Assembly: GCA_002633005.1 (NCBI GenBank)
Contig: NMRA01000062.1
Location: 729,981 to 793,980 of the forward strand
Length of the DNA: 64,000 nt
Direction of reading: 5' to 3'
DNA from: Phoronis australis
Taxonomy: Eukaryota > Animalia > Phoronida
This document shows positions 19,001-41,449 of this stretch, in pieces. Below the pieces are notes generated by a model. That model was not told where the DNA came from. It did not search any database and saw nothing but the letters and a program-made list of their open reading frames with translations. Numbering within the stretch: position 1 is the stretch's first letter; each line of letters begins with the position of its first letter. A program made the position numbers and the translations under genes.

Positions 19001-19885
19001 CACCATCTGCCGAGTGTGGCCTTGAATATTTTGCTTCGAAGGCAGCACTGGTTGCTTTTGTTGCAAATTGTCTGAAACTACTGATTGTTGAGCTTGGGTC
19101 TTGTTTTTTAAAGCTTTTAGTTTTTCTGAAGTCGTGGCAGCGTCTTCATTACGGTGGTGTGAGTGCTGTTGTTGTTGTTGTTGTTGTTGTTGTAGAAGTT
19201 TCTGTTGCTGGTGTTGTTGTTGCTGTTGCTCTATACGTGTCCGCAGATCAGGTTGTTTTACTTTAGCTACCTTTTCCGGATAGATTCTGGGAATATCTGC
19301 TGTCTTCTTTGGGTTGACCGGCACCGTTCGATCTTGAGAGGGTGGTGGTACTCGTGCAGGTTGGTGGTCTTGCGCGACTTCTGTCTGCTGATTACAGATT
19401 GAATGTCTCCGTCGTTTCCCTTCTTTCGCTTGCTGTGCCTTTGGTTGATCTTCTGTCGGCACTGTAAATTTCTTTCCTTTGACGTGTTTTGGATTTCGTG
19501 GGGGCAGCGGTGGCGCCTGTGCAGTTTCTTGTGACACTGCTATGTTGTCATCCCAGTATTGGGCTTTTTTGATATCGTAGTACTCCTGTGAATCTATCGT
19601 TTCCCATTGGCCGTCGTCCGCAATAGGGATGTGGCACGCCTCATCCAAAATTGGTGCATATTCGCTTTCCTTGTGTGGTTCAATTTTTTTGTTCACCTGA
19701 TCATCGAATTTTCGAGGAGACCCGGCGTTGTATTGTTGTATGCATGTACGCTCGTCTTTGGTAACAGTCTCAGTCGTATGTACGGATGGCGATATTATCC
19801 ATCTGCCGTCTCGCACAAGACCCTCCGGGCGTGGAGGTACAGGGGGCCTTTGTCTTGCGTTCCTAGCCTTAGTAATGTCCGCCAT
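16097..19885 (-). CDS. Uncharacterised 1262-aa intronless Q/P/A/T-rich protein (paralogue A): SH3-ligand motifs, polyQ, 15-aa repeat array, basic C-terminus, broken ITAM
   Basis: 3.8-kb open frame with an in-frame upstream stop and gaaATGG context. Collinear with 30685-34374 through in-frame indels. Motifs PPVPPRP, PPLPPRNPK, KPPRPPLPP. Confidence 0.8.
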   Translation of the reverse strand: MADITKARNARQRPPVPPRPEGLVRDGRWIISPSVHTTETVTKDERTCIQQYNAGSPRKFDDQVNKKIEPHKESEYAPILDEACHIPIADDGQWETIDSQEYYDIKKAQYWDDNIAVSQETAQAPPLPPRNPKHVKGKKFTVPTEDQPKAQQAKEGKRRRHSICNQQTEVAQDHQPARVPPPSQDRTVPVNPKKTADIPRIYPEKVAKVKQPDLRTRIEQQQQQHQQQKLLQQQQQQQQQHSHHRNEDAATTSEKLKALKNKTQAQQSVVSDNLQQKQPVLPSKQNIQGHTRQMVPHPGPTAPANILKTKVPQPPVSAEKQREGPPPNSIQQRTEVPPVKITNQKAQASPNPLSGTAQQRPQALPLQMSAAAQQKTPLAPISQEIPQAPPFQMSATIEQRLQAKPVQMSATAQQSPQAPPAPILATAQQNPQAPSVQKSAAAKQRPRAKSIQRSATAQQSPQAQPPPVSTTAQQRPQAPPVQTSGAAKQRPQEKPVHMPTAPQQSPQAPLAPILTTAKQNPQAPSVQKSAAAKQRPRAKSIQMSATAQQSPQAPSAPVSTTAEQIAQAPPVQKSTAAKQRPQAKPVETCAWAQQNILALLAPISTTPQQKPQAPPVQKSATTKQRPRARSVQMSETAQQSPRAQPAPVSTTVQQRAQAPPVQTSGAAKQRTQAKPVHMPTALQESPQAPQAPILTTAQQNPQAPPVQKTAAAKQRPRAKSIQRSATAQQSPQAQPPPVSTTAQQRPQAPPVQTSGAAKQRPQEKPVHMPTAPQQSPQAPLAPILTTAQQNPQAPSVQKSAAAKQRPRAKSIQRSATAQQSPQAQPPPVSTTAQQRPQAPPVQTSGAAKQRPQEKPVHMPTAPQQSPQAPLAPILTTAQQNPQAPSVQKSAAAKQRPRAKSIQMSATAQQSPQAPTAPVSTTAQQRPQGRPVQTSAAAKQRPQAPTASISPSTQQKAQAQPVQMPKVAQQRPQAPPAPTTATSTAQQTPQALPVQISATEQQRTQVPSARTAAQQRPQASPIQISTTVVQRPQHTRQQVPLELLNQAPAPATGLSQSKPQMVGELAGMPCGNLPQTSKQKTKPPRPPLPPQLLQRLEMAATERSIPSATTGVCQPLPDVEVRREMGAEQRQQQQWTSKKYPVPSPPHSPQLPAVQQHPRRNSRSSRRGSSALSRKSPKRAVKSRNGKSPTFKMPSLGKRIMKNANNSLWTLSTSSQSSYSDTYMYTEFPSYELLAFLNIQKMTLLGRDRKYHRQRNSLCYAPS
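16840..18830 (-). repeat. Coding tandem repeat: 45-bp (15-aa) units with a 270-bp higher-order period
   Basis: Units such as QAPPVQTSGAAKQRP; identical blocks at 17221 and 17491. Confidence 0.92.
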
Positions 19886-20425
19886 TTCTAGTGTTGTGAC
19901 ACCTTGCGTGGCTTATTTTTCTCCATAATTTGTCCAATAGAATGCAAACTATCTCACCGAACGAAGGTTTAAATATGTATTGCCGCTATCTCATCATCCT
20001 TGGTGAACCCATTTCATCTAGAATATCAAACATTAAATTTTTAGAACATAAGTATTGAAAATGCGCTAACTGCTGATGATTTATTGTTGCCTAACAAAAT
20101 CGTGTGCTGAGTTCCGTGTACGCAAGAGTCTCTCGAACGTTTGCTTGATCTTGAGGTTTCGCGAGGTTCTCATGTTTACAGAACCGCACACTTGCATACT
20201 CCTGACTATTGCGGAGTTTGGGAGGATCTACACAAATGTAAGTTATCCTCTGTGCATATCCTACATTGTGCTACAATTCTATTCACAGGTAGTTTAGGAA
20301 TCAAAAGTCAGCAAATTGGGCATGACTTTTGAACCAATGGGGTACCCCAGGCACACGCCTCAGTGATTTGCGATGGCGGTCCTTTCTCGCCACAGAACAC
20401 ATTCTTTGAACATTTTGCAACTTAC

Positions 20426-20580
20426 CAGGGGCGGATCCTGGATTTTGAGTGAGAGGAGGCCAGGACAGAGTATTTTCGAAGATTTTGCCCATCAGACATT
20501 TGTACCCCCGTATTGCCAAATGGACTCTAGGAGAGTTTTAGGGAGCAAGGCCCCCATGGCCCCCCTTAAATCCGTCACAG
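20426..20580. mobile_element. 5-bp-TSD MITE (TSD CTTAC); empty site in duplicate copy 2 at about 34950
   Basis: cttac|caggggcggatcc...aaatccgtcacag|cttac. Confidence 0.88.
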
Positions 20581-22736
20581 CTTACATGTACGTGCCACTT
20601 TATTGCCACATCAATGCATGATTTTGCATTCCTAAATATGTTGACCAAATGACATGAGACACGAGTGTTGAGCATTCAAATTCCATTTTGAATTCATACG
20701 ATACTGAATCTTTGATGATTTTGTTACCAAGAGGGCGCGGCGACAAAGTCAGATACAAGTCGGAATTTGCGTCAGCGGCCGTGGAGGATAACAACAAGGT
20801 ATCAAATAGATTCTGGCAGTTTTGAATTGTTCGAAAACTTGACTTCTTGACAGAGCAGCACATTCATGGTTGTAAGTATTTCACTTATCAATGACTCAAT
20901 GAAGAACTCGAAATGAATGATCGGGAAAACCGAGTGAATTGTGGCTCGTAGGTCTACAATTTTTAGTTGTTGATTGTTCGAAATCCATACTTAACTGGTG
21001 ACATTTTGGAGACACACTTTAAACCAAGGACAGCATTATCTGTGACTCGTTTAATGCAAAAAAGAAAACTTGATCATGATGTGGTACCCGTTTGTTAAAC
21101 TTCCGATCGCCTGCTATCTGTGTTCGCGATAATGGCGACAAACGTGCTGTAATTTCTCTAAAATAAGTCATATACGGACTGTGCAACGGCACGGGCTATT
21201 TTAAATTGAAAGGACAGTAATTTTTTTAATTCTAAAAAGTTGGTGACAATGAAAGATATTCAGCGAATGTTTGGACTTGCAACCAACAACGTTAGTTTAT
21301 TCTTCAGCTGTCACAGCCAGCACCCGCGACCCACATTGTAGATCTCCATCGGTGACTGGCGGCTGGCGGAAACGTGTCTTGGCAGCAATACCGCCATCGA
21401 CGTGGATTATTGTCTGAAAGTACTCGTTGATTGAACCACAAGCAGTCGCCGTCTCTCTGGTCTATAAGATATAGTCAGTTGGCAAATCATCTGCTAGTTG
21501 AGCGACCAGTTAAATCATCGAGGCGGATTGCCGTGTTGGCCATAATTAGTTCCAAACGTTTGAAGTTTGCCTGCTTTAACAGGGCACCATCTTCTGTTTA
21601 AGAAGGCAGTAAAACCTGGTCTGATGACTCAACCAATCCTCATTCTTTCCCGTCGTAACGCACCATAGGCGTCTCATTTGATTCCGCGAGTAGATAAATG
21701 CAGGATTCAACACCATCACTGCCACACAATAGATGTTGAGGCTGGTGTTCAGATCTTAGACCAGATATATAATGCCATCCCCAGGCACCTCATAAAGGAG
21801 GCTATGCATGTACATGTACGGTTGAATCAAAAAATGATATAAACACTGGCTCATTTGAGCACCGACTGTTTGGATTTCTGATCTTTCCCATCCCAATGCA
21901 TTTTGACGTGTACCTGTACAGTCTGTTCTCCATCTGTGAATAATGTGAACTTTTGCCATGAGAATGGTTCATAGTGAATGAACTAAACGTCGGATCAATT
22001 TATCTTCGTTTCCTTACGCGATAATTTTAAAGTTCGTGCCCATGCTTTGGCCAAAAACAAATGTTGTTTGCATCAAAGATCAAAGGTAGCATTTTCCATA
22101 TAAGGGACATGTGCTACGTCTATGTTTTGTCATAGCAAATAAGGAGACATATTTTGCCTTTTGGGAGAAAAATCGTCGAAACGGCAAGCGATGGCTTTTT
22201 TAATTTGAAACTGAAGGAAAGTGTTTAAATAATGTAGTTTAGCCCGTTTTCCACGTTCTGTGCCACCTACGTTAAGCCCGAAGTTGGTCCAAGTTAAGAC
22301 AGAAAAACCTCATGGAATCACAGACTACAGTACATGGACAGTCAACTCCGTATATTTTCAATGGACGAAATCTGAAATCTTACGCATGAGCCCTGACGTC
22401 ACTATTCACTATCGACAACTGGCAGATATAGCACCTTTTATTTCTGCCAAGTACATGTAGGCCTACGTCATCTGCTAATCATGCATGGTCGGCTGTTGTG
22501 TGGTCGTGTACTATTGCCAAAAGTACTCACGATACCAAGAGTTCTACTATTGGAATACCTTGAACAGCGCTTCAATGCCGATTTTTTTTCGTTGTGCTGG
22601 ACAGTAAAATAGATACGAGAATTTCTCGTCGCAATACACTAACCGGAAGCTAATTTTGTGCTACGTTTATAAGGTGGCGCCTCCTCTGGGGTATTACGCA
22701 AGAAAATGTCTGAAATGCGAATCTGTTGTCTAATAT

Positions 22737-23491
22737 CAGTGGCGGATCTAGGTTATCACAAGGGGGAGGCCAACATTTTGTCCGGCTGTAAGAATTTGTG
22801 TAAACTGAACCACGATTGTAGATGCGTATAGCACCGAATGGGGGGAGGTCGGGAGGGGGGTTTGACCCCCTCCCGCTCAGGAAATTTTTCTGTTTTTACC
22901 TCTAAAAATCAAGCATTTTCCTTGATTCCTGAAGTATTATTCACGAAAAAAGGCAAAAAACGAAGAACGTGTCAAACAGGAAAAACTGCAAGTAGCAAAG
23001 ACTCGAACTCACGACCTGGCGATTAGTGCGCGCGTACGTTGCCACTACACCACCACGATTTAACTACTAATCACATACTAAGAGACCTACTTGTTTATGG
23101 TCCACAGCGTTTGCGCGCGAAACCTACTTCTTTTTGTAATGCTTATTACACTTTTATATTTTGTGCCATCGATTCTTAACAAATTTGTCGTATTTAAAAT
23201 AGTCTTCAAATGCCAAAAAGACCAAATCCATTTTTCGTGTTGGCAATAATGACGGGATTGCTTTGGAATCGTCTTAAGATAAGGTTTGGCAAAGAGAGTA
23301 TTGCGAGTTTCTGAGTGATTCACCAAGGCTTCGATTAAAATTCACATCTTACCAGCAGCTTCTGTTTTTTCATCGTCACTCAGGTTCCATTTTCTTTAAA
23401 AAATGAAGTAAATTTTCTTCATTGCACAGTGGAGCAGACGACGGAAACGGAGTCGTAGTGCGCAGCGCCGCTGCCTNTAAATCCGCCTATG
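22737..23491. mobile_element. Longer (755-bp) element with the same termini and 5-bp TSD (AATAT)
   Basis: aatat|cagtggcggatct...aaatccgcctatg|aatat; it interrupts another dispersed repeat. Confidence 0.82.
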
Positions 23492-23571
23492 AATATCCGT
23501 GATGAAACGAGCCTCTGCGTGGGAAAGTTGTTTCTGATATCTATTGTTGGGCCAAACCTTTATGTTATTAA

Positions 23572-25229
23572 AGGAGAATGCCACCCGATTTAATTAGGCT
23601 TCTTTACCGTCGTAATCCGTCTATATCCACATTGCCTCTTATACGGTCGACCTCACCTTGCCTAGAGGTGTCGCGTTGACCTGTGAGGAAGGTGAGAAAC
23701 GATGCAGTGACGTCAGTGGTTCGTCTGCAGAGTGAATGTCGCTATATTGCGGTGCATCGTTCCCGCTTGTCCGAACTATGTGAAGAAAGCGGGTATATCT
23801 TCCTCGAGAACCCGAAAATGCTTAGGAAGTGGCTCGCGGTTGTGAAGAATGAAAGTTAGGCTGTTAATAGCAAGAATGAGGCCGTGAAACGTCTCCGTCT
23901 CTGTGGCCGGCAATTTATTGACAGTGACTTCTCTGACGAATTCCGGCTTACCAAAGAACTATCCATACGTACCGTTGCCTGTGCATGTTCATGGCACCTC
24001 TCTAGTATTTCTTGATCAATGTATTCTGGTTCGAACTGATAGTCTGTGAAACCTAACGTGAAGTCTTTGTCGCCTGAGCCCTTGACTAAATGGGGATTGG
24101 CGCGCGGCGAGTTGCCATGTAGACGTTTATCATTCTGCGTTCTGTTTCAAAATGAATTATTCTCATCCTAACCAAAGCTTATATGAAACTGAAACAAAGT
24201 CTGTCTCATTAGATACAATTTGTGATGTCGGAGTGCTCGTGAGTTCAAATGTTTTGAGAAGCCAGCAATGAATAAGCCACTGCGTTACCGGCTTTTGATG
24301 CCGATATCAAAGGTAATTGACCGGGCACCGAGGCCGTGTGAGCGCATGCTAATTCAGTGTTTGCCGACAGAAAGCTGTTATGAAACAATTACTCGATTTT
24401 ATATGCTATGGTCACAAGTGAGGGAAATCTTTATTTAGAAATACAAATACATTATTCAAATCATTTTTACTGTACAACCTTTGCCCTGACGGTCTGTGGA
24501 AGGGGAACCCGACTTCGCGGCCCCCGACAAGTAAGTAGATTTTCAGTATCGTGGCTAATTCACATGAATAATTACGTGCATAATTATTGCTTTGGCTCAT
24601 TATTATAGTCTTTTCGTGACTGGAGGTTTAGTTTCCAACTCAAGCTGGTTTATGTTCGTGCCAGTCCTGATCAGGTTCCGAGCCACTGGTTGGGATAACG
24701 AGTCAGTCCCGCCGCGACGGGCCTGATCGGGTTCCGAGCCACTGGCCGGGATAACAAGCGTTTTGTGTGTTTAGAACTCAAAAGATCACAAGTAGAACAA
24801 CACAGATCTAGGTTCCCCTGTCTGTATTTCATGGAAGAATACTTTGAAATTATCTCCGAACAGACCCCAAACTCCTCAGTGCTACGGACCTTGGTAAATT
24901 GGCCTGCCGAACTTTGTAGGCTACGGTGTGTCCAAATACCAGTAAATCCGTAACAGCGAAATAAAACAACGCGTTTTTATAAGGGTTTGACATTTAATTT
25001 GATGATTAATTTGTATTAAATGATGAATTCAAGCTATAAGCTGACACCAGTAACCCGTGTTGTGAATTGCTGAACATACTCCGTGTGAAACCAATTACGT
25101 CATTGGATAATTTAAACACACCCATCTCCCGTAAGATGTCAGGTAACGCAACCGAACGTGCCGTTGTTGAGTAGAACTACTCGGTCTAAATTGATACAAA
25201 ATAGGTTGTGTTTTGGGTGGCATGCTCCT
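23572..25229 (+). mobile_element. Kolobok-like DNA transposon relic with TTAA TSD and a decayed THAP domain
   Basis: ttaa|aggagaatgccaccc ... gggtggcatgctcct|ttaa. At 23750-23930, RCIVPACPN / FLENPKMLRKWLAVV..* ..LRLCGRQF with a frameshift and a stop. Not seen in duplicate copy 2. Confidence 0.78.
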
Positions 25230-26353
25230 TTAACATCTTAAGATTTCATTGATTCAGTCATAGTTCATATCATTTACATGCTAAAACCGGACTTAACATT
25301 AAGGAAAACACAGTCTAATTTGGTTTATTCAGGAAACTCCATTCACACACCAAAATCTAATTCTTCCGAACGCTCTCTGCTGCCTGGGAACATCGTTTAC
25401 TTCGTCAAAAGCCCACCTTTGCTCCTTGTCGTAATGACCAATCGTTTCATTCTATATAGGGAAAACGTTACTTAAATTTAAAATTGCGGCAACTCTTTTT
25501 AAATAGAGTTTGTTAAGAGTTTAAGTTTTTGTTTTAAACGCCACAGACTTAAAGCGTAGTCTCAAAACTATCAAAGCTTCTTACCGGATCGTTTTTGGCT
25601 ATTCTAGCCATTGCCCCTGTGCTCTGCCGATTCCCCAGTATATACACGCTATGCCATTTTGCAACCAGCAAATTCACTAAAAAATAAGAATTTAGCGTTC
25701 AACTTTTTTCTTGTTTGCGACACGTTACATTCACGAGAAACGGCTCGTGCCTTATTTCGTCACGAAGCACATTTTTGCACACATGTGCATCCTCTTAACC
25801 CTCTGACGCCACCACTCTAATGAACGCAGACCATTCGTTACTTACACAACACAGTTGTTCCCCCAGTTATAACGCTTCAACGTAAATTATTAAAGCAACT
25901 GCTCACAAAATTTTGCGACTTTTGCATATTCAAAAATTAAATTCCGTGAGTTGCTACAACACTCATTCGATTGCACAAACTATGAATGGTTGAGATTTGA
26001 ATAGCAATAACCAAATATCCATAAAGTTGTTTGAGCATCATTTTTGTTTAGGACTAAGGCAAAAGAGAGGTCTTCACGTTTGCTGCTTTTTCACGGTTCC
26101 TTTTGAACGAATTTGTTTTGAAGGATAAAAGTAGGATTAAATTAGACCCTCATGCCCATATCTCCCAAATTGGACATTGTGGCATTGGTGGTCCTTCATA
26201 CGCACTGGTGACCCCTACTACGTAACCATGAGTCACTGCAGTGACTTCAGTTCCATGCGACGCTTACAAAAGGCACCCTAAGCAGGTGGCAACAGGATAG
26301 AGCTGAGAAGCAGCGGTATCACAGGGACACCTTGATTGTCTCATCGTACAGTT

Positions 26354-26596: not shown

Positions 26597-26904
26597 TTCG
26601 CAATAAGCTAAAGAAATGTTTGCTCCACTCATAATTCTTTGCGTAATCGGCAACGCTGCCTTCTTGACACAAACTAGCCAAGTTCAACAAATCTTGTTTT
26701 CTACAGGGCATCGGTGAAACGAAGCACTTAGGCTCATAACTTTCTTTGATGCGCTTCTGGGAAATTTGTTTTGCATGTTCCTAATGACGAGTGCCAACAT
26801 ATTTGTGCTAATTTTTCTGTGAACCATACTACCAGGCAATTATTCTATGAAATGAGTACCCTTTTTCTTTACCCTTTGCGAAGCTATGACTGGACGCATA
26901 TATA

Positions 26905-27694: not shown

Positions 27695-30684
27695 TATGTC
27701 TTGCATTGCACCCGTACTTATAGTTGTGGTGATTTCATTACCACGTCATATACTTACAGTGTCTTATGGTTTATAATTCTTTACATAAAATCTGGAAAGT
27801 TTAATAAAGTTTTGTTTATCTCCAAAAACTGTGCTTCTTAGCCCATAACATTGCAACTAATGTGACGGACTAGTGGAATTTTTGGTTAAACCACGTCACA
27901 AATGCGGTAAACATCCTGATCACTACTGATACTGAAAAATATGGTTACCTTTTATTATGTCAGTTTTACTGTTCCAGTTAGAGCCACAAGGGACTTCAGG
28001 TCTAATTTAAGCATCTGTTGTTTCACGTGACTGACACAGACGAATGAACTAATTTGGATAGTATAGTTAGATTCTCGATGAATCTCGTACAATTGATGGA
28101 TTTTCCTCAACACAAGGTTCCATGAACTTCCTGAAAGTGTGTGAAATTTCTGGGAGAGGCCAAAATCTAATAATATCCACCGTTGGCAATTGTGGCATTT
28201 GGATTTTTAATGACGCAGTGGTCTTAACTATGCAAAATATGTGAACCAATCACTTTGTGGTGAGGAAATACAAATTTTATGTCCATGCATAAGATTCAAC
28301 GAATGGATGACCTTCAAATCTAAACTGGCTCTCGATATTTTCAGTTCGAGTAGGTCAAATTTTCAACATTGTCTGAAAGTATCTACCTAAGGGTCAACTG
28401 AAAGCTGCTTTGAAGCTGAATAATTCTCTGATCAAAAATATTAGCGTGTGTGTTCATTCTAATGTTCATTTCAGTTTTAGCATGGCCTTCCCTGGAATCA
28501 GTCGTCATCTGATGAGAGATCACGGTCGTGTGTTTTGTCGTCACTGTTTGTATCCGACACTTGGTTGGCTTCTATATGTGTTGGACCAGAGGAGGTATAC
28601 TGTATTTTGTGGTTTGACACTTCCTGCTAATAACTTCCCAACTTTGGGTGATGGGGGAAGGAGCTTAATTGAAGCGCATCTGGCGTGCGTTCAGTAGACG
28701 CTAGGACCTACACTAGGACCTAGCTAAAACCTAGTCAAAGTCACGTGTTCTCATTTAAAATACACGACAATATCTCACTTAATCTCGCGAAGTCTTGCTT
28801 TTTTGCGAGGTCCTAGCGTTACTGAACGGGATTCTGGTCAGTAGCACGTTAACTACAGTAGTTCACTTGATGCAGATGCTGGCTGAGTGAGTCTTCATCG
28901 GGGAAGGCGTCTCGTGGTTTTCTTCAGATTGTAAAATAATGAGACCCTTGCCTAAATACAGAAACCTCAGCATTTTTGTTGTGCATGCAGAGAGGACAAA
29001 AATCTTCATGAACCATCTATTGCCAACGGCGGCCATATTGGATTTTGGCCTCTCTCGGAATTCCTCCCCGTGGAAATTTTTTCTTTAAAATCCATCGATG
29101 GCGTGAAATGTACTGAGAAACAAAGCTTAGGGGAAGTGAAATATATGTTCCAACTGTTAAGTTTTCATTTATAGTTGCAGAACAATCACTAAGAAACCAT
29201 ATGTCAGTTTTCCGTGAAAAAATGAAACACGATTTTAACACCCCGAAAATGTCTTGTCGCAAATTCCGAACATGTATTTTGAAAGGTTGTCGAAAGTAGC
29301 TATAAGGCTGGGTCTGAAAACCTTTCAGAAGCAAGGCTGTGACTATTGTCGTTGTAGAGTCCAGCCACGGCTCGCCGCTACGTGTAAAATATGACCATGA
29401 GTGTAGTTGTCGGGTTTGTTAACAATTTTTCCCGAGAAATCGCTGGTTATCTGGAACCGTGTCTCGAGAGTTTCGCTTGATGATTCCGTTATGAGCAAAA
29501 ACGTCAAAATACGCAATAAAATTTGGCTTGGTTTAATAACTACAACACTCCATCTAAACTCAGTCCAACAGGTAACCGGAAGTTCAGAGTGCAAGCTCTC
29601 GCTGCTAGTGATGTGGGTATCAAGCACTCAGACAAGAATGCATGGGTTATTTGCTGGAGTTAGCATTCCATGCTTTGTCGAAAACTATATGAACATATAT
29701 TAAAACTTGGGATTCATTTCACTTCAAAAGCGCTATGCGTGGCCGCAGAAAATGTATTCTGTCTCGTATTTCAGCCATTTTCCTCCCACAGAAGAAACTT
29801 TCAGACTCAGAAAAGGTTCACAGACGCAAAAGCGACAGTTTTCAGCCCAAAATCACTGATTAGATTCTGAAAGTGAATTTACTACAGACTTTACATAGGT
29901 GATATGAATCTGCTGCTATTCAGTCTTTTTGTTCGCAATCCTTTGAAGGCTACCTTAATTCACATATGACTCCTCAGCACCTGTACTGCAATACAGCGAT
30001 GCCACTGCCGGAGCTGCAAAAGTGAATCTTGTCATGCTATTGGACTTTTCTTGTTCTCAAAATATTTGAGCCCGCGCAGGTAGACCAGATTCATTGAACC
30101 TACTTGCAAAGTAGACGCCAGCACTGGCCTACTTAAAAACATTAGAGAGAGAGCAAACTAGACACGGCTGTTTAACTGTACAGTAGCACTTCACCCATCA
30201 AACATTTGACCTGGTAGCCATTTTGCTGGGGTGCTCTGGTAAGGTGATAAGCATCCTCGCAAAATAATAGCCTTTTACTTGCGTGATCTTTTACGCGTTC
30301 ACGCACCCTTGCCCATGTGCATTACTCGTGTCGCCGTAGCTAAATGACAGAAACGCACGTGTGAGCGATTGGTCCGTACGGCAGCTCCGGTTGCAACGGC
30401 CCCTATCCATAGTGCAAGCTCTGAATCGCGGACTCCCTACACGTATACGACGTGTTAGTTAAGAGCGGAACCTGGGACCGGACTCTCTCCTGCACGACCA
30501 AATATAAACAGCCGCGTTTACTTATTTCATTTTTAACAAAACCATTTGCCTTCTGAAATTATGGCTGGCCCCCTCGCGATATCCTAGATTAGTCAATTTC
30601 GCTTTCCGATTGGTAAGTCCTGTGGGTTGTGATCAGGAAACGATTAACTTTTTAAAGTACATGTACCTCAAGTTGTTTTGAAAT

Positions 30685-33600
30685 TTAATACTGCTGCCAC
30701 GATGGAGCATGACCAGGACAGTCTCGTCTGCGATGATATTTTTTGTCTCTGCCTAGCAAAGTCATTTTTTGAATATTAAGAAACGCCAGCAGCTCGTAAT
30801 TTAGAAATTCGGTGCACGTGCCCGAGAATGCACTTTGGTTTGATACACATGTGGATAATGTCCATAACGAATTATTGGCATTCTTCATTTTCCTCTTCCC
30901 CAGTGAAGGAATTTTAAACTTTGGCGACTTGCCATTCCGACTTTTGCTTACTCGCTTCGAGCTTTTTCTGGATCTTCCCGACGAGCCTGTCGCTGAAGAA
31001 CCAGAACTACGATTTGGAGGTTGTTGTACAGCAGGTAACCGTTGTGAGTATGGTGGCGGTGGGGCTGGGCGACATTTCGATGTTGATTGTTGCTGTTGCC
31101 GCTGCTCAGCACCCATTTCACGGGTTACCTGTACAGCAGGCAACGGCTGGCGTACACCTGTTGTTGCAGATGGAATAGGACTTTCCTTTGCAGCTATCTC
31201 TTTCCTTTGCAACAGTTGTGGTGACCGTGGTGGTATCGTGTCTGGCTTTGAAGTCGGCGGCAAGTTCCCACCAACCATTACCGGTCTCGATTGTGATAAT
31301 CCTGTTGCAGGAGCTGGTGCCTGGTTTAATTGTTTAGGTGGCGCTTGCTGCCTTGTCTGTGGTGGACCTGTCTTTTGAACTGGGGTTGCTTGTGGCCTTT
31401 GCTGCGCTGCAATTGGCATTTCACCTGCCGGTGACCGAGGTCTTTGTTGTTGAATTTGAGTTGGGGGTGCCTGCGGTCGTTGTTGTGTTGTTGTTTTAAT
31501 TGGAATGGGTGGCGCCTGCGGTCTTTGTTGTGCTATTTCTAGTGTTGTTGCCTGTGGCCTTTGTTGAGCTGTTTTTGGCATTTGAACTGGCGGTGCTTGC
31601 GTTCTTTGCTGTATTGTTGTTGATGTTGGTGTTGACGGTACTTGCGGATTTTGTTGAGCTGTTTTTGGCATTTGAACTGGCGGTGGTTGCGCTCTTTGAT
31701 GGACTGTTGCTGATATTGGAGCTGACGGTGCTTGTGGTCTTTGCTGTGCTGCTGTTGGTGTTGGAGCTGACGGTGCCTGCCTTCTTTGTCCTACTGTAGC
31801 TGACATTTGAATTGACAATGCTTGTGGTCTTTGCTGTGCTGTTCCTGATATTGGAACTGGCGGTGCTTGTGGTCTTTGCTGTGCTGCTGTCGATGTTGGA
31901 ACTGGCGGTCTTGGCGGTGCTGTTGTTGACATTTGAACTGGCGATGCTTGTGGTCTTTGCTGTGCTGCAGTCGATGTTGGAGCTGGTGGTGCTTGCGGTC
32001 TTTGCGGTGCTGCTGCAGACATTTGAACTGGCTTTGCCTGCGGTCTTTGCTGTACTGTTGTTGATATTGGAGCTGACGGTGTTTTCTGCTGTCCTGATGC
32101 TAAAATTTGAATTGGCGGTACTTGATGTCTTTGTTGTGCTGTTGTTGACACCGGAACTTGCGGTGCTTGTGGTCTTTGCTGTGCTGCTGTTGCTGTTGGA
32201 GCTGACGGTGCCTGCACTCTTTGTCCTAATGTTGCTGACATTTGAATTGGCAGTCCTTGTGGTCTTTGCTGTGCTGTTGCTGATATTGGAACTGGCGGTG
32301 CTTGTGGTCTTTGCTGTGCTGCTGTCGATGTTGGAACTGGCGGTCTTAGCGGTGCTGTTGTTGACATTTGAACTGGCGATGCTGATGGTCTTTGCTGTGC
32401 TGCTGTCGATGTTGGAGCTGGCGGTGCTTGTGTTCTTTGCGGTGCTGTTTGAGAAATTTGAACTGGTGGTGCTTGTGGTCTTTGCTGTGCTGCCGTTGGT
32501 GTTGGAGCTGACGGTGCCTGCGTTCTTTGTCGTTCTGTTGCTGACATTTGAATTGGCGGTGCTTGTGGTCTTTGCTGTGCTGTTGCTGATATTGAAACTG
32601 GCGGTTTTTGCGGTCTTTGCTGTTCCGTTGGTGACATTTGAACTGGTGATGCTTGTGGTCTTTGCTGTGCTGCTGTCAATGTTGGAGCTGGTGGTGCTTG
32701 CTTTCGTTGCGGTGCTGCTACTGACTTTTGAACTGGCGTTGCTTGTGGTCTTTGCTGTGCTGCTGTCGATGTTGGAGCTGGTGGTGCTTGCGGTCTTTGC
32801 GGTGCCGCTGCAGACATTTGAACTGGCTTTGCTTGCGGTCTTTGCTGTACTGTTGTTGATATTGGAGCTGACGGTGTTTTCTGCTGTCCTGCTGCTGACA
32901 TTTGAATTGGCGGTGCTTGATGTCTTTGTTGTGCTGCTGTTGACACCGGAACTTGCGGTGCTTGTGGTCGTTGCTGTGCTGTTGCTGACATTGGATTTGG
33001 CGAGGCTTGCAGTCTTTGGTTTGGTAGTTTAACTGGCGGTATTTCTGCTGTTTGTTGGCTTGCATTTGGTGATGGTCCTTCTCTTTGTGTTTCTACTGAA
33101 ACAGGAGGCTGAGGCGCTTTCCTTTTCAAAGTTTTCACGGGAGCTGTCGAGCCAGGCTGAGGCACCCTCTGCCGAGTGATGTCTTGGATATTTTGCTGTG
33201 ATGGCAGCACTGGTTGGTTTTGTTGCAGATTGTCTGAAATTAGTGTTTGTTGAGCTTGGGTCTTGTTGTTCAAAGTTTTTGTTTTTTCTGCAGTTGTGGC
33301 AGCGACTTGATTACGGTGCTGCTGTGAATGCTGCTGTTGTTGTTGTAGTTGTTGTTGTTGGTGTTGTTGTTGTAGAAGTTTCTGTTGCTGGAGTTGTTCA
33401 TGTTGTTGCTCTATGCGTGTCCGAAGATCCGCTTTTGTTACGTTTGGTACCTTTTCCGGATAGATTACGGGAATATCTACCGTTCGATCTTGAGCGGGTG
33501 GTGCTATTCGTGCAGGTTGCACGGCGTGAGCTACTTCTGTCTGCTGATTACGTATTGAAAATTGCCGCCCTGTCCCTTCGGTAAATTCCGCTTGTTGTGT

Positions 33601-34374
33601 CTCTGATCGGTCTTCTTCCGGCACTGTAAATTTCTTTCCGTAGACGTGTTTTGGTTTTCGTGGAGGCAGCGGTGGCCCCTGTGCAGTCGCTTGGGGTCCT
33701 GCTGTGTTGTCGTCCCAGTTTTGGGGTTTTATGGTATCGTAATATCCCTGTGAGTCTATCGTTTCCCATTGGCCGTCGTCCGCAGTAGGCATGTCGCACG
33801 GCTCATCGAATATTGTTGCATATATGCTTTCCTCGTCCGGTTCAATTTCTTCATAGACGTGCTCGTCAAGGTTTCGAAGAGCCTCAGTGTTATGTGCAGT
33901 CTCTTGGGGTCCTGCTGTGTTGTGTTCCCAGTTTTGGGGTCTTATGGTATCGTAATATTCCTGTGAGTCTATCGTTTCACATTGGCCGTCGTCCGCAGTA
34001 GGCATGTCGCACGGCTCATCGAATATTGTTGCATACATGCTTTCCTCGTCCGGTTCAATTTCTTCATAGACGTGATCGTCAAGGTTTCGAAGAGCCTCGG
34101 CGTTATATTGTTGTCTATACGCTTCTTCAGTAACCGTATCAGTCAGTTCAGAAATATATTCGTAATCAACATCAGAGAAGGTCTGTTCCGCCTCCGCATG
34201 CGATATTATCCATCTGCCATCTTGTACCAAACCTTCCGGACGGGGAGGTACAACTGGCCTTGTGACCAGACGTTCGTCCACTTCTTCATAGATGTGTGGC
34301 TCAGGCATATAAACAGGATCATATTCGTGTTCGATTGTAGCGTAAATGTCATCTCCCTCAGTATTATCCTCCAT
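30685..34374 (-). CDS. Uncharacterised 1229-aa intronless protein (paralogue B): acidic Tyr-rich N-terminus with two consensus ITAMs, SH3-ligand motifs, polyQ, 15-aa repeats, basic C-terminus
   Basis: 3.7-kb open frame with TAA directly before the ATG. DHVYEEI-x7-YATI and EHVYEEI-x7-YATI; PVVPPRP, PPLPPRKPK; no signal peptide or TM stretch visible. Confidence 0.82.
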   Translation of the reverse strand: MEDNTEGDDIYATIEHEYDPVYMPEPHIYEEVDERLVTRPVVPPRPEGLVQDGRWIISHAEAEQTFSDVDYEYISELTDTVTEEAYRQQYNAEALRNLDDHVYEEIEPDEESMYATIFDEPCDMPTADDGQCETIDSQEYYDTIRPQNWEHNTAGPQETAHNTEALRNLDEHVYEEIEPDEESIYATIFDEPCDMPTADDGQWETIDSQGYYDTIKPQNWDDNTAGPQATAQGPPLPPRKPKHVYGKKFTVPEEDRSETQQAEFTEGTGRQFSIRNQQTEVAHAVQPARIAPPAQDRTVDIPVIYPEKVPNVTKADLRTRIEQQHEQLQQQKLLQQQHQQQQLQQQQQHSQQHRNQVAATTAEKTKTLNNKTQAQQTLISDNLQQNQPVLPSQQNIQDITRQRVPQPGSTAPVKTLKRKAPQPPVSVETQREGPSPNASQQTAEIPPVKLPNQRLQASPNPMSATAQQRPQAPQVPVSTAAQQRHQAPPIQMSAAGQQKTPSAPISTTVQQRPQAKPVQMSAAAPQRPQAPPAPTSTAAQQRPQATPVQKSVAAPQRKQAPPAPTLTAAQQRPQASPVQMSPTEQQRPQKPPVSISATAQQRPQAPPIQMSATERQRTQAPSAPTPTAAQQRPQAPPVQISQTAPQRTQAPPAPTSTAAQQRPSASPVQMSTTAPLRPPVPTSTAAQQRPQAPPVPISATAQQRPQGLPIQMSATLGQRVQAPSAPTATAAQQRPQAPQVPVSTTAQQRHQVPPIQILASGQQKTPSAPISTTVQQRPQAKPVQMSAAAPQRPQAPPAPTSTAAQQRPQASPVQMSTTAPPRPPVPTSTAAQQRPQAPPVPISGTAQQRPQALSIQMSATVGQRRQAPSAPTPTAAQQRPQAPSAPISATVHQRAQPPPVQMPKTAQQNPQVPSTPTSTTIQQRTQAPPVQMPKTAQQRPQATTLEIAQQRPQAPPIPIKTTTQQRPQAPPTQIQQQRPRSPAGEMPIAAQQRPQATPVQKTGPPQTRQQAPPKQLNQAPAPATGLSQSRPVMVGGNLPPTSKPDTIPPRSPQLLQRKEIAAKESPIPSATTGVRQPLPAVQVTREMGAEQRQQQQSTSKCRPAPPPPYSQRLPAVQQPPNRSSGSSATGSSGRSRKSSKRVSKSRNGKSPKFKIPSLGKRKMKNANNSLWTLSTCVSNQSAFSGTCTEFLNYELLAFLNIQKMTLLGRDKKYHRRRDCPGHAPSWQQY
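31380..32990 (-). repeat. Coding tandem repeat: mostly 45-bp (15-aa) QAPPxxxSTxAQQRP units
   Basis: Recurrent cttgtggtctttgctgtgctg on the + strand; some shorter 12-13-aa units. Confidence 0.9.
33682..34105 (-). repeat. 213-bp (71-aa) tandem duplication of the ITAM-bearing module
   Basis: ttggccgtcgtccgcagtaggcatgtcgcacggctcatcgaatattg occurs at 33769 and 33982. Confidence 0.95.
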
Positions 34375-35091
34375 TTATTGTGTTGCGACACCTTGGGTGT
34401 TTTTCTCCGTAATTTGTTAATAGAATGAAAACAAACTCGCCGCACGAAGGTTCATGATTTTGCACTATCTCGTCGTTGTTGATGAACCCATTTCATCTGG
34501 AATATCAAGCATTTACTTTTTAGAACAACGAAAATGCTCTAACTGCTGAGGATGTTTTGTTTCCTAGCACAAAATCGTATGTTGAGTTCCGTAGATGCAA
34601 GGGTCTCGCAAAGGAAGCTCGTGGGATGACGTGCTTCGTTTGCAATACATGACGATATCTCTCGAACTTTTGCTTGAACTTGAGTTTTCGCCAGGTCGAT
34701 CTCCTGTTTACGGAACCGTATATTTCCATACTCCTAACCATTACGAAATTTGGGAGGAATTTCACTAATGTAAACCATCCTCTATGAACATCCTACACTT
34801 TACTACAGGTCTGCTAACAAACTGTTTAAGAATAAAGAAGTCAGCAAATTTGGAATAACTTTTGCACCAATGGTACCCGGTACACGCCTCAGTGATTGCG
34901 GTGGCGGGCCATGTGCGCCACAGAACTCATTCTTTGAACATTTTGTAACTCACGTGCCTGCTTATTGCCACATCAATGCACGATTTTGCATTTCTAAATC
35001 TGTTGACCAAATGACATGAGACACGAGTGTTAAGCATTCAAATTTCATTTTTAATTTATACGATACTGAACCTTTAGAAAATTTGATGATG

Positions 35092-35156
35092 ACCGGGACT
35101 TGAAGCCGGGTTGCACGAGCGACAGTCAAGCATCTAAACCATTCGGCCAAGAGGCA
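35092..35156 (-). mobile_element. tRNA-derived SINE head (GTC anticodon-like loop), inserted in copy 2 only
   Basis: Minus strand cctctTGGCCGAATGGtttagatgcttgactgtcgc...gcTTCAAGTCCcggtc; absent at the paralogous site at about 20710. Confidence 0.55.
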
Positions 35157-38100
35157 ATTGCCACTTGGTAAGCGGCTTAGAGAGGCTTTATCTGACTGTA
35201 CGTGTCGTGAAAACCGAAAGTCACGCTTCACAACACTTCCAATGAGTATCTTTGAGGATATTGTTACCACGAGAAAGCGGCGATAAAGTTAGATACAAGT
35301 CGAAGTTTGCGTCTGCGGCCGTGGAGGATAACAACACGGCATCAAATTGAATTCGATTCTGGCTGTTCTGGGTTGTTAAAAAATGCGAACATTTGTTCCC
35401 TCTGCGGTGCAGCACATTCATGGTTGTGAGTATTTCACTTATAATTACTCAACGAAGAATTCAAAATGACTGATCGGTAAAACGGAGTGAATTGTGCCGC
35501 CTGCATACCCGGCCAGAATTGCCCTGTACTGTTACCATGCACTTTGTTTTTGTATGAAGCGAGCAAAAGTTCTTGAGTCTTGAAATGGTTTAAGATATCA
35601 TATGTTCCTGACTACCCTTTTACAGTTGTACTTGAATCACCTTCGGGGTTTTGTTCTTTTTCTTTTGGTATGCACACGTAACAAAATTAGTTTTGTTGCA
35701 TAATACAGTGACTTTTTGTGCGCCACCATATTTATTTTGGGTGCATTGTGCCGTCATCTCCGTCCGTCCGTCCATGCTGTATCTCCGAAACCCCTTGACG
35801 TGTCATTCGTGAAATTTTGCAGATATGTTTCGTTCATGGATGGGACGGCATGGGCGAATTTTCGACCAACGGTGTTTTTTTTATCCTTCACTTGTTAGAG
35901 CGCCGACGACTCCATCGGTGACTGGCAGAAATATGGGAGCATATGCAGTAGCCGTCTCTCTGGTCAAATAAATACAGTTTGGCAATACATCTCCAAGTTG
36001 AGCTACCAACTAAATCTTCCTGTTCTAGCCGGATTTCTTGTAGTAGTCGATAATTATTTCCAAACGTTTGTTGACTTTTAACAGGGCACCATTTTCTGTT
36101 TAAAGACTCTAAACGATGTTCTGACGACTCAGTTAAACCTCATTCGGTACCGCTCTAATTCACCATTGGCGTCTCATTTGAGTCCGACTTTAATCAGAGC
36201 AGGATTCACCACCATCACTGCCACATACATGTAATGGATGTTACCGCTCTTTGGGGTGCCGTGCAACTCACTTGACATGCAGGTAACACGCCTGTCGCTA
36301 ATCAGACTTTGTAAGGTTTCGATGGCTACAAGAGAGCTGAGATCCGTTTCGTGGTTTTAGACTTAAAGAATTACGTCCAAAGACCGAAATGGGGCTCGGT
36401 AAGACCAGAGCTATTACGAACCAGAAAAGATTGTTTCATCAACACAAAATGGGATTTTGGCCTTTAATTCGGGTTTTGACATAGATGATCATACAAACTA
36501 CGCTTACGCTACCTTGATCTTGCCTAACTCCCCGGCTTTTGAAACAAAGAAAAATCTGTCGTCGACTTGGAAACAATACCCTCTTGACACACGCGCGAAC
36601 CATTTGCTAATTTTTTAAAAATCTTTTGGGAGGTGATGACAACGTCGCCGAAGCATCGTTAACTGATTTAATTTACTCTAGTTCTGCTTCATAGAACGGT
36701 GCATATTTATACAAGTTTGCACTAAGAGTAACCCGGTAGCAGGCTTAAATATTGCGGTCTTAAAGAGGCAGGCACAGAACGTGAAACCTCGTAAAAATAC
36801 CTTCACTTGAATAGATCGTGGCGATTCTACTTCTTGGGGGTTCACTATTTTAAAATACAGTCGAAATATCAATTGAATCATCATTATACGTTTTTAAATT
36901 CTGCAACCCTGATAACATATATGCGCGAATGCGCTCAAAGAAATCGGACTGGCTGCAGCTTGAAATTTCCATTGTTTTGTTTACGCCAAACAACAAAGGT
37001 CGCATTTTCCATATGAGGGACATGTGCTACTTCTGTGTTTTATTGTAGCAAATTAGGGGTCGTATTTCTTACCTTTTAGGAGAAAAATCGACGAAACGGC
37101 GAGTAATTGTCAGATCGTTTTTGAAATTTGAAACTGAAGGAAAATGCTTTCACATCAACAAAAATTCAAAATCTTTACAAACAAACCGTACAAATACCTT
37201 GTGAACAGTTTGACGTGTGTTTTGGTGGCAAAGCACCACTTTGAATAATGAAATCAAATAAATGTTGTAATGCCGTGCAGTTACCGACGAATAAACATAT
37301 AAAATAGTAAAACTAGTAAAACTAAAATTACGAGCGTTTTTCACGTTCCATGCCACCGACGTTAAGCTTTATTTTGGTCTGACTAAGTTAAAGGCAGAAA
37401 AGCTTCTTGATCCGGGCCTCTGTATGGGAAGGTCGTTTTTGATTTCTATTATTAGGCCAAAAGTCGACGTTGCAAACATCTTAAAATTTAATTGATTTTG
37501 TCATAGTTTATATCATTTCTAGGCTAAAATCGGACTTAACATTAAGGAGAACACAGTCTAATTTGGTTTATTCAGGAAACTCCATTCACACACCAAAATC
37601 TAATTCTTCCAAACGTTCTCTGCTGCCTGGGAACATCCTTTACTTTGTCAAAACGTTCACCTTTGCGCCTTGTTGCAATGACACCTCGTTTCGTTATAGA
37701 TAGGGAAAACGTTAGTTTAATGCAAAATTGTGGCAACTCTTTTAAGAGTTTGTTAAGAACCTCAAAGTTTTTGGTTTAAAGGCACAGACTTACACCAGAG
37801 TCTCGAAACTATCAAAGCTTCTTACTGGACCGTTTTTTGGCGATTCTAGTCATTGCTCCTGTGCTCTGCCGAGTCCCCAGATGTAAACATGCTATGCCAT
37901 TATGCAACCAGCTTAATATAAAATATTATTTGAGCGTGCAATTTTTTCATTTACTACATGTAACATTCACGAGAAATGGCTCGTGCCTTATTTCGTCACG
38001 AAGCACATTTTTGTACATACATGCGTCCTCTTGACCCTCTGGCGTCACCACTCGAATGAATGCAGTCACATCCGTTACCTACACTACAGCGTTGTTACCT

Positions 38101-38854
38101 AGTTAGAATCGACAAAACTATGAATAGTGGAGATTTGAACTGCAATAACCAAACATCCATCATTTTGTTTAGGAATGAGGCAAGAGAGGGGTCTTCATGT
38201 TTGCCGCTTTTTCACGGTTCCTGTTGAACGAATTTGTTTTGAAGGGATATTAAACCCGGCAGGCGCTTTACACGTTAATATAATACACCCTGAGGAGTGG
38301 ATTTTGCACGCCTGTTTGGTACATTTTTAACATTTAGAAATTCAATGAACGCCAAAATCCTACCCTATCCGCGTAACCCCACAACGTCATCAAGTCTTTA
38401 AAGATAACACCCGCGAAATTTTGTTGAATAATGGGTTGCTAAGAGTTTGGTGTTTGGCCGCGACATGTTTTTTTCCGTGAACTGCAAAAAGCACGTGCTT
38501 GTGCCGAAAGAGCTGATATGGTGGCGATAAGAAAGAATCTGACTTTTGGACTAAAGTGGTAACTGTTTGGTAAATTCAAGTGGCTTCATACCCCCCAATA
38601 CTGTTGATATTCCTACGGACATTATGCGTCAACAAAGAAGGGGGCTGGGGTAAAAGTGTTGTGGGGGCGGGGGTGTAGCTGACAAGTCACATCCGTCGAC
38701 GGGTGTTGCAGGTGGAGGTAATAGGGAGTTGAATGGGGATAGAGGGATTTAAAACTTGTGTAATTGTTCATGAAATATGTAAATTTTCAATCGGAGTGAG
38801 GGTATAGGTTACCAACATTTTTAAGTCTGGCCTGCACGCCACATAGGTCTGCCC

Positions 38855-38920
38855 CAACCAAACTCGAACCTAGGACCTGCTAACCTTGCGCGCTCTAGTC
38901 CACTGAGCCATCGGGACCAC
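38855..38920 (-). mobile_element. tRNA-derived SINE head; related copy at about 54520-54585
   Basis: Minus strand ggtcccgaTGGCTCAGTGGactagagc...aGGTTCGAGTttgg. Confidence 0.6.
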
Positions 38921-41088: not shown

Positions 41089-41241
41089 GGGCCCAGTTGT
41101 ATAAAAGTTATACGCCGTATAGCAACAATGACGTGGCATTATCACGCATCACGTTGTTATTGTTGAACAATGCACCTGACGTCATGCAACAATCAAACTA
41201 ATTCAGCGGATAACTTTTGAAGCTTTATGCAACTCAGCCCT
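41089..41241. mobile_element. Short Harbinger-like MITE
   Basis: gggcccagttgtataaa / tttatgcaactcagccc inverted ends. Confidence 0.55.
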
Positions 41242-41449
41242 GGTCATAGTCTCTGAGCTGGATACACCACCAGCACGTGGTGAAGCTGTGCCGATTACTG
41301 TCCCTGGACTCTCCGGTATCTGTTCGTACTCACGACACCAACTCCGTAACCTTTGGTAGCTGCAGTGTCTTGAGCAACTTGCGACGCTTCACGTCTCATC
41401 TTTCTTCATAACAAGTATCAGGGATACCTCGGTGGTGTCTGGGTACACT

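What the first reader, a model, noticed from the sequence alone, without database searches (positions are those of the whole stretch)
33682..34374. Soluble, intronless protein with two consensus ITAMs and a dense EPIYA/YEEI-like tyrosine cluster
Seen: the N-terminal 240 aa of the 1229-aa ORF contain DHVYEEI-EPDEESM-YATI (34024-34080) and EHVYEEI-EPDEESI-YATI (33811-33867). Both fit D/E-x2-YxxI-x7-YxxI exactly. DDIYATI, HEYDPV, HIYEEV, VDYEYI and two YYDTI also occur, in acidic context, bracketed by PVVPPRP and PPLPPRKPK. A TAA sits directly before the ATG, and no signal peptide or TM segment is visible. Known: this spacing is the ITAM consensus read by Syk/ZAP-70-type tandem SH2 domains, pYEEI is the optimal Src-family SH2 ligand, PxxPxR is a class II SH3 ligand, and similar motifs occur in pathogen effectors such as CagA EPIYA and Tir. 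Inference: a receptor-independent cytoplasmic ITAM scaffold in an invertebrate, or a captured viral/symbiont signalling mimic.
Basis: partly seen in the sequence, partly recalled or inferred. Interest (0 to 1): 0.82.

Follow-up and report, generated by a model that had tools for sequence, protein, structure and literature searches.

The report
Orphan phosphotyrosine scaffold with tyrosine-stripped twin
This expressed, spliced gene encodes a protein with no predicted membrane segment and no recognised domain, whose acidic front end is packed with tyrosine motifs, so it likely works as a docking platform for Src-family kinase signalling; its two 'ITAMs' are one motif copied by a 213-base duplication, and a neighbouring twin gene expressed in the same samples lacks them.

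Summary
The motifs are there, and the gene is real. It is transcribed on the minus strand in 2 of 3 raw RNA runs (one study) and silent in the third. Three corrections. (1) The two ITAM-spaced motifs are one motif in a 213-bp, 95%-identical tandem duplication. (2) The gene is not intronless: a 3,297-nt GT-AG intron lies in the 5'UTR. All three frames close behind the acceptor, so no upstream receptor exon joins. (3) A co-expressed tandem paralogue 10.8 kb away (64% identical) keeps both PxxPPR SH3-ligand motifs and the basic tail but lacks the ITAM spacing and most tyrosine motifs. The YxxI/V cluster is beyond chance (7 vs 1.9 expected, P=0.0005). The ITAM spacing is not, once those motifs exist (P=0.36). 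No homologue was found anywhere, and nothing points to viral or symbiont capture. Best reading (0.5): a lineage-specific disordered docking protein. A Src-family kinase would bind PPLPPR, phosphorylate the cluster and recruit SH2 proteins (Src, SHP2, Nck, perhaps Syk/Shark). Binding and phosphorylation are untested. The scan had not noted this protein on other DNA.

The parts
30685..34374 (-). CDS of P0001, 1229 aa, no Pfam domain, no homologue found
37794..37900 (-). Non-coding exon 1; the 5' end is approximate, inferred from depth
   Evidence: depth 140/166 at 37833, bin mean 27-32; frames read
34497..37793 (-). 3,297-nt GT-AG intron in the 5'UTR
   Evidence: joint 34496->37794, CT..AC, 140 and 151 reads, absent from DNA run X1
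34375..34496 (-). 5'UTR part of exon 2; all three frames closed; three short upstream ATGs (14, 8, 12 codons)
34279..34353 (-). N-terminal tyrosine cluster aa 8-32 (DDIYATI, EYDPV, HIYEEV); absent from the paralogue
34237..34257 (-). Class II PxxPxR SH3-ligand motif 1 (aa 40-46), kept in the paralogue; the 22-codon block around it has dN/dS 0.28
33680..34106 (-). 213-bp tandem duplication (two 71-aa units, 95% nt identity)
34024..34077 (-). ITAM-spaced motif, copy 1 (aa 100-117)
33811..33864 (-). ITAM-spaced motif, copy 2 (aa 171-188)
33748..33783 (-). Trp-acidic block ADDGQWETIDSQ (aa 198-209), identical in both paralogues; resembles cortactin's Arp2/3-binding acidic motif (lead only)
33649..33675 (-). 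Class II SH3-ligand motif 2, PPLPPRKPK (aa 234-242); APPLPPRN in the paralogue
31444..33018 (-). 45-bp (15-aa) Gln/Pro/Ala/Ser/Thr repeat array, about 33 units, no Tyr
30883..30975 (-). Polybasic stretch aa 1134-1164 (last 100 aa net +17); candidate membrane anchor or nuclear signal
30745..30798 (-). 18-aa block identical in both paralogues (aa 1193-1210), predicted helix, not amphipathic
30548..30684 (-). 3'UTR; RNA 3' ends pile up at 30667 (19 molecules, just after an ATTAAA overlapping the stop) and 30548 (6 molecules) in run X5
16097..19885 (-). Paralogue P0002, 1262 aa, 64% identical; no ITAM spacing, net charge of aa 1-125 is -6; co-expressed
20018..25584 (-). 5'UTR intron of the paralogue (GT-AG, 184 and 174 reads)

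Best explanation
This is an expressed, lineage-restricted host gene whose product is likely a disordered, domain-free docking protein that a Src-family kinase would bind and phosphorylate at many tyrosines, creating a platform for SH2 proteins. SHOWN: transcription, two-exon structure, motif content, the 213-bp duplication, and a co-expressed paralogue that keeps the SH3 motifs but not the tyrosine cluster. INFERRED, in order. (1) The kinase SH3 domain binds PPLPPR/PVVPPR. (2) It phosphorylates the acidic I/V-Y-E/D/A sites. (3) pYEEI/pYEEV hold the kinase's SH2 domain open and make phosphorylation processive. (4) pYATI/pYEYI recruit SHP2-type tandem SH2, pYDPV Nck-type SH2, and the doubly phosphorylated YEEI-x7-YATI may also bind Syk/Shark. 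(5) The roughly 530-residue Gln/Pro array acts as a spacer, and the basic C-terminus tethers the protein to a membrane or another partner. The duplication would raise avidity for tandem-SH2 partners. The ITAM is one possible reading of the cluster, not its defining feature.
For: Motif enrichment after removing the duplicate: Yxx[ILV] 7 vs 1.87, P=0.0005; Y[DEA]x[IVL] 7 vs 0.58, 0 of 20,000 shuffles (pattern chosen after seeing the sequence). 13 Tyr in the 179 de-duplicated N-terminal residues vs 5 in the other 979. Both class II motifs are kept in the paralogue, whose APPLPPRN matches the first 8 residues of the high-affinity Src-SH3 ligand APP12 (PMC7830187, passage). A class II ligand C-terminal to a tyrosine site lowered Src's Km from 28.7 to 6.1 uM (PMC4509517, passages), the same arrangement as PPLPPR here. 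A pYEEI peptide binds all eight Src-family SH2 domains at 310-675 nM (PMC5417323, passages). IYATI matches the core of the CagA EPIYA-C/D segments (PMC8042891, table passages), and duplication of that segment raises SHP2 affinity by avidity (PMC5408210, passages). N-terminal motif blocks show purifying selection between paralogues (pooled Fisher P=0.013-0.022). The frame is maintained: neutral change would give 16.7 stops, and 0 of 2,000 simulations had none. No Pfam domain and pLDDT 38 fit disorder.
Against: No binding, phosphorylation or translation was shown; all partner assignments rest on mammalian motif preferences. There is no orthologue with which to test conservation. Overall protein constraint is weak: pooled non-array pN 0.152 vs pS 0.189, P=0.12; two segments have dN/dS 0.95 and 1.2. 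The more highly expressed paralogue does without most of the tyrosines. Without aa 1-37 the enrichment falls to 4 vs 1.19, P=0.019, and YATI and YEE[IV] each recur, so the motifs may not be independent. Short upstream ATGs lie in the leader, and the main ATG has T at -3. The C-terminal helix is not amphipathic (moment 0.13), so the membrane tether is unsupported. Low pLDDT from a two-sequence alignment is weak evidence of disorder.
Confidence: 0.5

Rival explanations
1. A true cytoplasmic ITAM scaffold: its main job would be to recruit and activate Syk/Shark through doubly phosphorylated YEEI-x7-YATI, independently of a receptor.
For: Exact fit to Yxx[I/L]x(6-9)Yxx[L/I], the consensus used for invertebrate Alr tails (PMC9546547, passages). 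Unconditional shuffle P=0.02. The unit that was duplicated is the one carrying it. The paralogue keeps Ile at both +3 positions, which suggests decay of an ancestral motif. Amphioxus Syk phosphorylates an ITAM receptor and binds a hemi-ITAM of MyD88 (PMC13344425, passages). Moesin is a precedent for a non-receptor ITAM.
Against: It is one motif, not two. The spacing arises in 36% of shuffles given the YxxI blocks. The longer D/E-x7-D/E-x2 consensus (recalled) is not met. The motif is absent from the co-expressed paralogue. The loose pattern has 1,085 hits in mouse. No membrane anchor was shown.
Confidence: 0.18
2. An intracellular structural or matrix protein of one tissue (cornified-envelope-like or granule/cytoskeletal filler). 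The Gln/Pro array would be the working part, and the tyrosines would be cross-linking sites or incidental.
For: One non-coding plus one coding exon, tandem copies and Pro/Gln-rich disordered repeats parallel vertebrate SEDC genes (PMC9365767, passages). Expression is high and on/off. The array makes up about 43% of the protein, and both paralogues keep it while only one keeps the tyrosines. Overall constraint is weak. A large repeat-protein exon lies next door.
Against: It does not explain why 7 of 13 Tyr sit in Y-[DEA]-x-[IVL] context, nor why two class II SH3 motifs survive synonymous change. The array region is Lys/Arg-poor (9%) and has no Tyr. No homology to SEDC proteins.
Confidence: 0.2
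3. An actin-nucleation adaptor in the manner of cortactin/HS1: the conserved Trp-acidic block would bind Arp2/3, and Src phosphorylation would bring in Nck.
For: ADDGQWETIDSQ is one of the longest identical blocks between the paralogues (12 aa) and resembles cortactin's DDWETDPDFV Arp3-binding motif (PMC10613254, passages). It is compatible with the best explanation.
Against: Two residues are inserted between DD and W, and there are fewer acidic residues after W. No actin-binding repeat or WH2 was found by Pfam. The resemblance was spotted by eye, with no statistic.
Confidence: 0.07
4. The ORF is the cytoplasmic tail exon of a transmembrane receptor, or a captured viral or symbiont mimic.
For: Motif resemblance to receptor tails and to bacterial EPIYA effectors. 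Only about 18-19% of each RNA run was read, so a rare isoform could be missed.
Against: The only splice joint listed for the gene leads to a short exon whose three frames are all closed behind the acceptor. The paralogue has the same structure. No relatives in viral, prokaryote-genome or metagenome contigs. Neighbours are intron-split host genes.
Confidence: 0.05

Closest known systems
Multi-site docking/scaffold proteins (Gab, IRS, Dok, Cas families; described in PMC3593179, passage)
   Same: Long disordered region with many tyrosine motifs and SH3-ligand motifs; inferred kinase-substrate and SH2-platform role.
   Different: Those have a folded N-terminal domain before the disordered tail. 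This protein has no recognised domain, its tyrosines are N-terminal, and it has no sequence homology to them.
ITAM-bearing proteins: receptor tails (Hydractinia Alr) and the non-receptor ITAM of moesin
   Same: YxxI-x7-YxxI with acidic residues around it.
   Different: No transmembrane segment or FERM-type anchor. One duplicated motif lies inside a wider YxxI cluster and is absent from the paralogue. Syk binding is untested.
EPIYA-type proteins: bacterial CagA, Tir, Bep and host Pragmin (PMC3593179; PMC5408210; PMC8042891)
   Same: Disordered, tandemly expanded tyrosine segments; IYATI core like EPIYA-C/D; EHVYEE/ESIYA match an EPIYA-like pattern (pattern recalled).
   Different: A host gene with a spliceosomal intron; no literal EPIYA; no homology, so the likeness is convergent.
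[quoted passage not shown]
   Same: Non-coding exon plus one coding exon, tandem copies, Pro/Gln-rich disordered repeats.
   Different: No homology; acidic tyrosine-motif head and SH3 ligands; not from a tetrapod epidermal cluster as far as can be told.

Membership tests
ITAM-bearing signalling protein | Yxx[I/L]x(6-9)Yxx[I/L] core | tested here: met
   aa 103-117 and 174-188; consensus from PMC9546547
ITAM-bearing signalling protein | Extended acidic consensus D/E-x7-D/E-x2-Y (recalled, not from a call) | tested here: not met
   No match in either copy
ITAM-bearing signalling protein | Spacing beyond chance given the tyrosine motifs | tested here: not met
   P=0.36, or 0.10 with D/E-x2
ITAM-bearing signalling protein | Spacing conserved in relatives | tested here: inconclusive
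   Absent from the only relative, the paralogue; no orthologue found
ITAM-bearing signalling protein | Membrane association (TM segment or lipid anchor) | tested here: inconclusive
   No TM segment and no upstream coding exon; a polybasic tail is present, but the helix is not amphipathic
ITAM-bearing signalling protein | Dual phosphorylation and Syk/Shark tandem-SH2 binding | not testable with these tools
   Needs biochemistry
Gab/IRS/Dok/Cas docking proteins | Folded N-terminal targeting domain | tested here: not met
   No Pfam hit, no PDB sequence hit, pLDDT 38
Gab/IRS/Dok/Cas docking proteins | Disordered region with multiple SH2-type tyrosine motifs and SH3 ligands | tested here: met
Gab/IRS/Dok/Cas docking proteins | Phosphorylated by a tyrosine kinase in cells | not testable with these tools
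   No phosphoproteome available
Bacterial/viral EPIYA-type mimic | Encoded by or derived from a microbe or virus | tested here: not met
   Spliceosomal intron; no relatives in three collections (single-protein queries find close relatives only)
SEDC structural genes | One non-coding plus one coding exon; Pro/Gln-rich repeats | tested here: met
SEDC structural genes | Homology or synteny with the tetrapod EDC | tested here: not met
   No homologue; no S100-type gene among the Pfam hits of 143 scanned frames and 3 ORFs

The most novel reading that the evidence does not exclude
A host-made, domain-free phosphotyrosine 'master key': a cytosolic protein that, like bacterial EPIYA effectors, grows SH2 docking sites by tandem duplication and switches on Syk/SHP2 signalling without any receptor. 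It is paired with a co-expressed twin that keeps the Src-SH3 hooks but has shed its tyrosines and would act as a built-in decoy. This would be a cytosolic counterpart of paired activating/inhibitory receptors.
Probability: 0.15. Interest if true: 0.75.

Novelty: new variant of a known kind. Interest (0 to 1): 0.45.

Why it matters
If the best reading holds, it shows a signalling scaffold built from short motifs alone and caught in the act of evolving. One gene copy has gained or doubled SH2 docking sites while its twin lacks them, giving a natural wild-type/mutant pair for testing how phosphotyrosine networks recruit new parts. If the Syk reading holds, it would add a receptor-free ITAM outside vertebrates and bear on what Syk did before adaptive immunity, a question PMC13344425 calls largely unknown (abstract). 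The tempering facts: non-receptor ITAMs and multi-site docking proteins are known kinds, the gene is an orphan, and nothing is yet shown biochemically.

Tried and rejected
Homology searches, all blank: aa 1-330 against proteins of 675-2151 aa (0 of 3,217 candidates) and of 30-674 aa (0 of 3,253); C-terminal two-sequence profile against 197-2000 aa (0 of 2,731; weak evidence by the tool's own note); aa 1-330 against 1.84 billion representatives (0 at E<=0.001); PDB sequences (0 at E<=10); Pfam (0 of 3 ORFs); viral, genome and metagenome contigs (2, 19 and 34 pattern matches, none confirmed). The protein Atlas gave no answer, and no whole genome is held, so further paralogues and this animal's Src/Syk/SHP2 genes could not be checked. 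The run search listed no RNA holder; RNA evidence comes only from laying raw reads. AlphaFold models were low-confidence (pLDDT 58 and 38), so no fold search was run. No complex was folded, because phosphotyrosine cannot be modelled there. The P=0.0006 for 'two ITAMs' was rejected because the copies are not independent. 167/159 loose-ended reads at 30849 were considered as a 3' splice and rejected: by eye their letters match the paralogue (alignment), so they are likely cross-mapped. A 35-base non-GT-AG skip at 31233-31269 (42/46 reads) is probably cross-mapping or an allele, but is unexplained. An amphipathic membrane helix at the C-terminus was not supported. Literature searches for a soluble invertebrate ITAM scaffold (listings only) showed none by title or abstract start; this does not prove absence. 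Scan look-ups by place, words and sequence found nothing on this protein. No supplements were opened; the 1,085-hit list of PMC6189171 was not seen.

Full report
WHAT IS THERE. The ORF at 30685-34374 (-) encodes 1229 aa. It has an acidic head (aa 1-240; 26% D/E, 16 Tyr, net -52), a Gln-rich linker, a roughly 530-aa array of 15-aa Gln/Pro/Ala/Ser/Thr repeats with no Tyr, and a basic tail. No segment is hydrophobic enough for a membrane span or signal peptide (maximum KD19 0.86). Pfam finds nothing. The window is eukaryotic: intron-split exons of a PLP decarboxylase lie on the + strand. 'Animal/invertebrate' rests on that context and on unreviewed scan notes for the same genome; I did not test the taxon.

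ONE ITAM, COPIED. Both ITAM-spaced motifs and both YYDTI lie in a 213-bp tandem duplication at 33680-34106, 95% identical, with 10 of 71 residues different. It is no assembly artefact: the go-back-213 joint stands in 137 and 103 RNA reads and in a DNA contig, and with one copy laid the depth over the unit is about double (355-359 vs 140-170 in X5). Counting both copies gives P=0.0006, which is invalid. On the de-duplicated 179 aa, one ITAM core has P=0.020 and Yxx[ILV] is 7 vs 1.87, P=0.0005. Keeping the five YxxI/L blocks and shuffling their places gives an x6-8 spacing in 36% of trials, or 10% with the D/E-x2 lead-in. The real signal is thus a cluster of Y-[DEA]-x-[IVL] motifs (7 vs 0.58, 0 of 20,000 shuffles; post hoc pattern). 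Dropping aa 1-37 weakens it (4 vs 1.19, P=0.019). For background, the loose ITAM pattern has 1,085 hits in mouse (PMC6189171, passage).

GENE STRUCTURE AND EXPRESSION. The gene is transcribed on the minus strand in X5 and X6 and has zero depth over the coding bins in X7 (2 of 3 raw RNA runs, one study, 18-19% of each run read). A GT-AG intron spans 34497-37793 (140 and 151 reads) and joins a short upstream exon. After the acceptor all three frames hit a stop before the main ATG, so no upstream coding exon can be added through this joint. RNA 3' ends pile up at 30667 and 30548, and no GT-AG joint is listed at the 3' end. The gene is therefore not intronless, but probably has one coding exon. 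The leader holds several short upstream ATGs, and translation is not shown. The frame is under constraint, however: neutral change at the paralogue distance would give 16.7 stops on average, and 0 of 2,000 simulations had none. Indels were multiples of three in 9 of 16 coding vs 8 of 38 non-coding gaps (P=0.022).

THE TWIN. The gene lies in a tandem segmental duplication (15956-26740 matching 30542-41598; blocks 71-91% identical). The paralogue (16097-19885, 1262 aa, 64% identical) has the same 5'UTR intron, is expressed in the same two runs at higher depth (about 260-420) and is silent in X7. It keeps both PxxPPR motifs, the ADDGQWETIDSQ block, the array and the tail. It lacks aa 12-37 and the VDYEYI stretch, and reads QVNKKI for HVYEEI, YAPI for YATI and HVKG for HVYG; its head is nearly neutral (-6). 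Two Tyr codons differ by two bases each, which hints at directed change but is post hoc. The RNA donor's allele of the paralogue loses a further Tyr and the Ile of NKKI. Which copy is ancestral cannot be told without an outgroup. Between paralogues dN/dS is 0.28 for the first SH3-motif block (22 codons; P=0.02-0.10 by rounding), 0.60 for the unit plus second motif (pooled P=0.013-0.022), 0.75-1.2 in the linkers and 0.67 in the tail (P=0.46). Pooled, P=0.12; non-coding blocks diverge 0.11-0.23. The protein is thus kept open but evolves fast, with modest constraint at the motifs.

RELATIVES. None was found in 5.8 billion clustered proteins, 1.84 billion representatives, PDB, or viral, prokaryote-genome and metagenome contigs. 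The protein itself was not listed either, so this animal's proteome may be missing from those collections, and 'orphan' is provisional. Nothing supports viral or symbiont origin.

HOW IT LIKELY WORKS. The features kept in both copies are class II SH3 ligands. The paralogue's APPLPPRN equals the start of the Src-SH3 ligand APP12 (PMC7830187, one passage), and such a ligand C-terminal to a tyrosine site lowers Src's Km about fivefold (PMC4509517, passages). pYEEI is a sub-micromolar ligand of all eight Src-family SH2 domains (PMC5417323, passages). IYATI is the core of the CagA EPIYA-C/D segments (PMC8042891, table passages); phosphorylated C and D segments bind SHP2, and duplication of the C segment raises affinity by avidity (PMC5408210, passages). 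That YDPV is Nck-type is recalled, not read. I therefore infer a Src-docked, multiply phosphorylated SH2 platform (0.5). Syk/Shark binding is one possible output; as the main role it gets 0.18. A structural, SEDC-like role gets 0.2 (PMC9365767, passages), a cortactin-like Arp2/3 adaptor 0.07 (PMC10613254, passages), and receptor exon or captured gene 0.05. AlphaFold on two-sequence alignments gave pLDDT 38 for the head and 58 for the tail, with one helix at the conserved 18-mer; this fits disorder but is weak evidence.

COMPARISON AND NOVELTY. It works like the multi-site docking proteins (Gab, IRS, Dok, Cas; PMC3593179, passages) but lacks their folded domain, so it is not a member. It meets the ITAM core pattern (PMC9546547, passages) but fails the chance test and is not conserved in its only relative. 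Receptor-free ITAM signalling is known from moesin, and amphioxus Syk reads a hemi-ITAM in MyD88 (PMC13344425, passages). Three literature searches (listings only) showed no soluble invertebrate ITAM scaffold. All papers were seen as listings or passages, none whole, and no supplements were opened. Verdict: new variant of a known kind, interest 0.45. The boldest open reading is a tyrosine-rich activator paired with a tyrosine-stripped decoy twin (probability 0.15, interest 0.75).

Noticed in passing
window 42718-51519 (-): 2933-aa ORF with 38-aa repeats and recurring basic G-[IL]-F-G-K-x-K-R-R motifs, AHNAK/periaxin-like by eye (recalled; no Pfam hit). The frame stays open to about 52250 without an ATG, so it is probably the last exon of a larger gene. 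Nearly silent in the three RNA runs over the part laid (42718-48200).
   Followed up: partly
window 4953-8727 (+): Exons of a PLP-dependent decarboxylase (PF00282; GAD/CSAD-like by eye) at 4953-5138, 5590-5997 and 8407-8727.
   Followed up: no
window 19684-19979: RNA reads of the paralogue differ from the window at 13 listed fixed sites in about 300 bases, against 3 fixed sites listed for the studied gene's 5' 600 bases (lists are truncated). Either a very divergent allele or a third copy.
   Followed up: partly
window 20017-25585: The paralogue uses three 5'UTR donors (25585 main; 25558 and 20426 minor). The window copy has TT where the studied gene has its GT donor.
   Followed up: partly
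window 31233-31269: 35-base non-canonical skip in 42 and 46 RNA reads; cross-mapping from the paralogue or an allele; unexplained.
   Followed up: no
window 31050-31059 (-), aa 1106-1109: A PPPY (WW-ligand type, recalled) motif in the studied protein, absent from the paralogue.
   Followed up: no
window 13081-13392 (+): Remnant of a hAT transposase dimerisation domain (PF05699, E 4e-5).
   Followed up: no
window 22496-25344, 28680-28831, 41087-41244: High-copy interspersed repeats, read on both strands in all three RNA runs.
   Followed up: no
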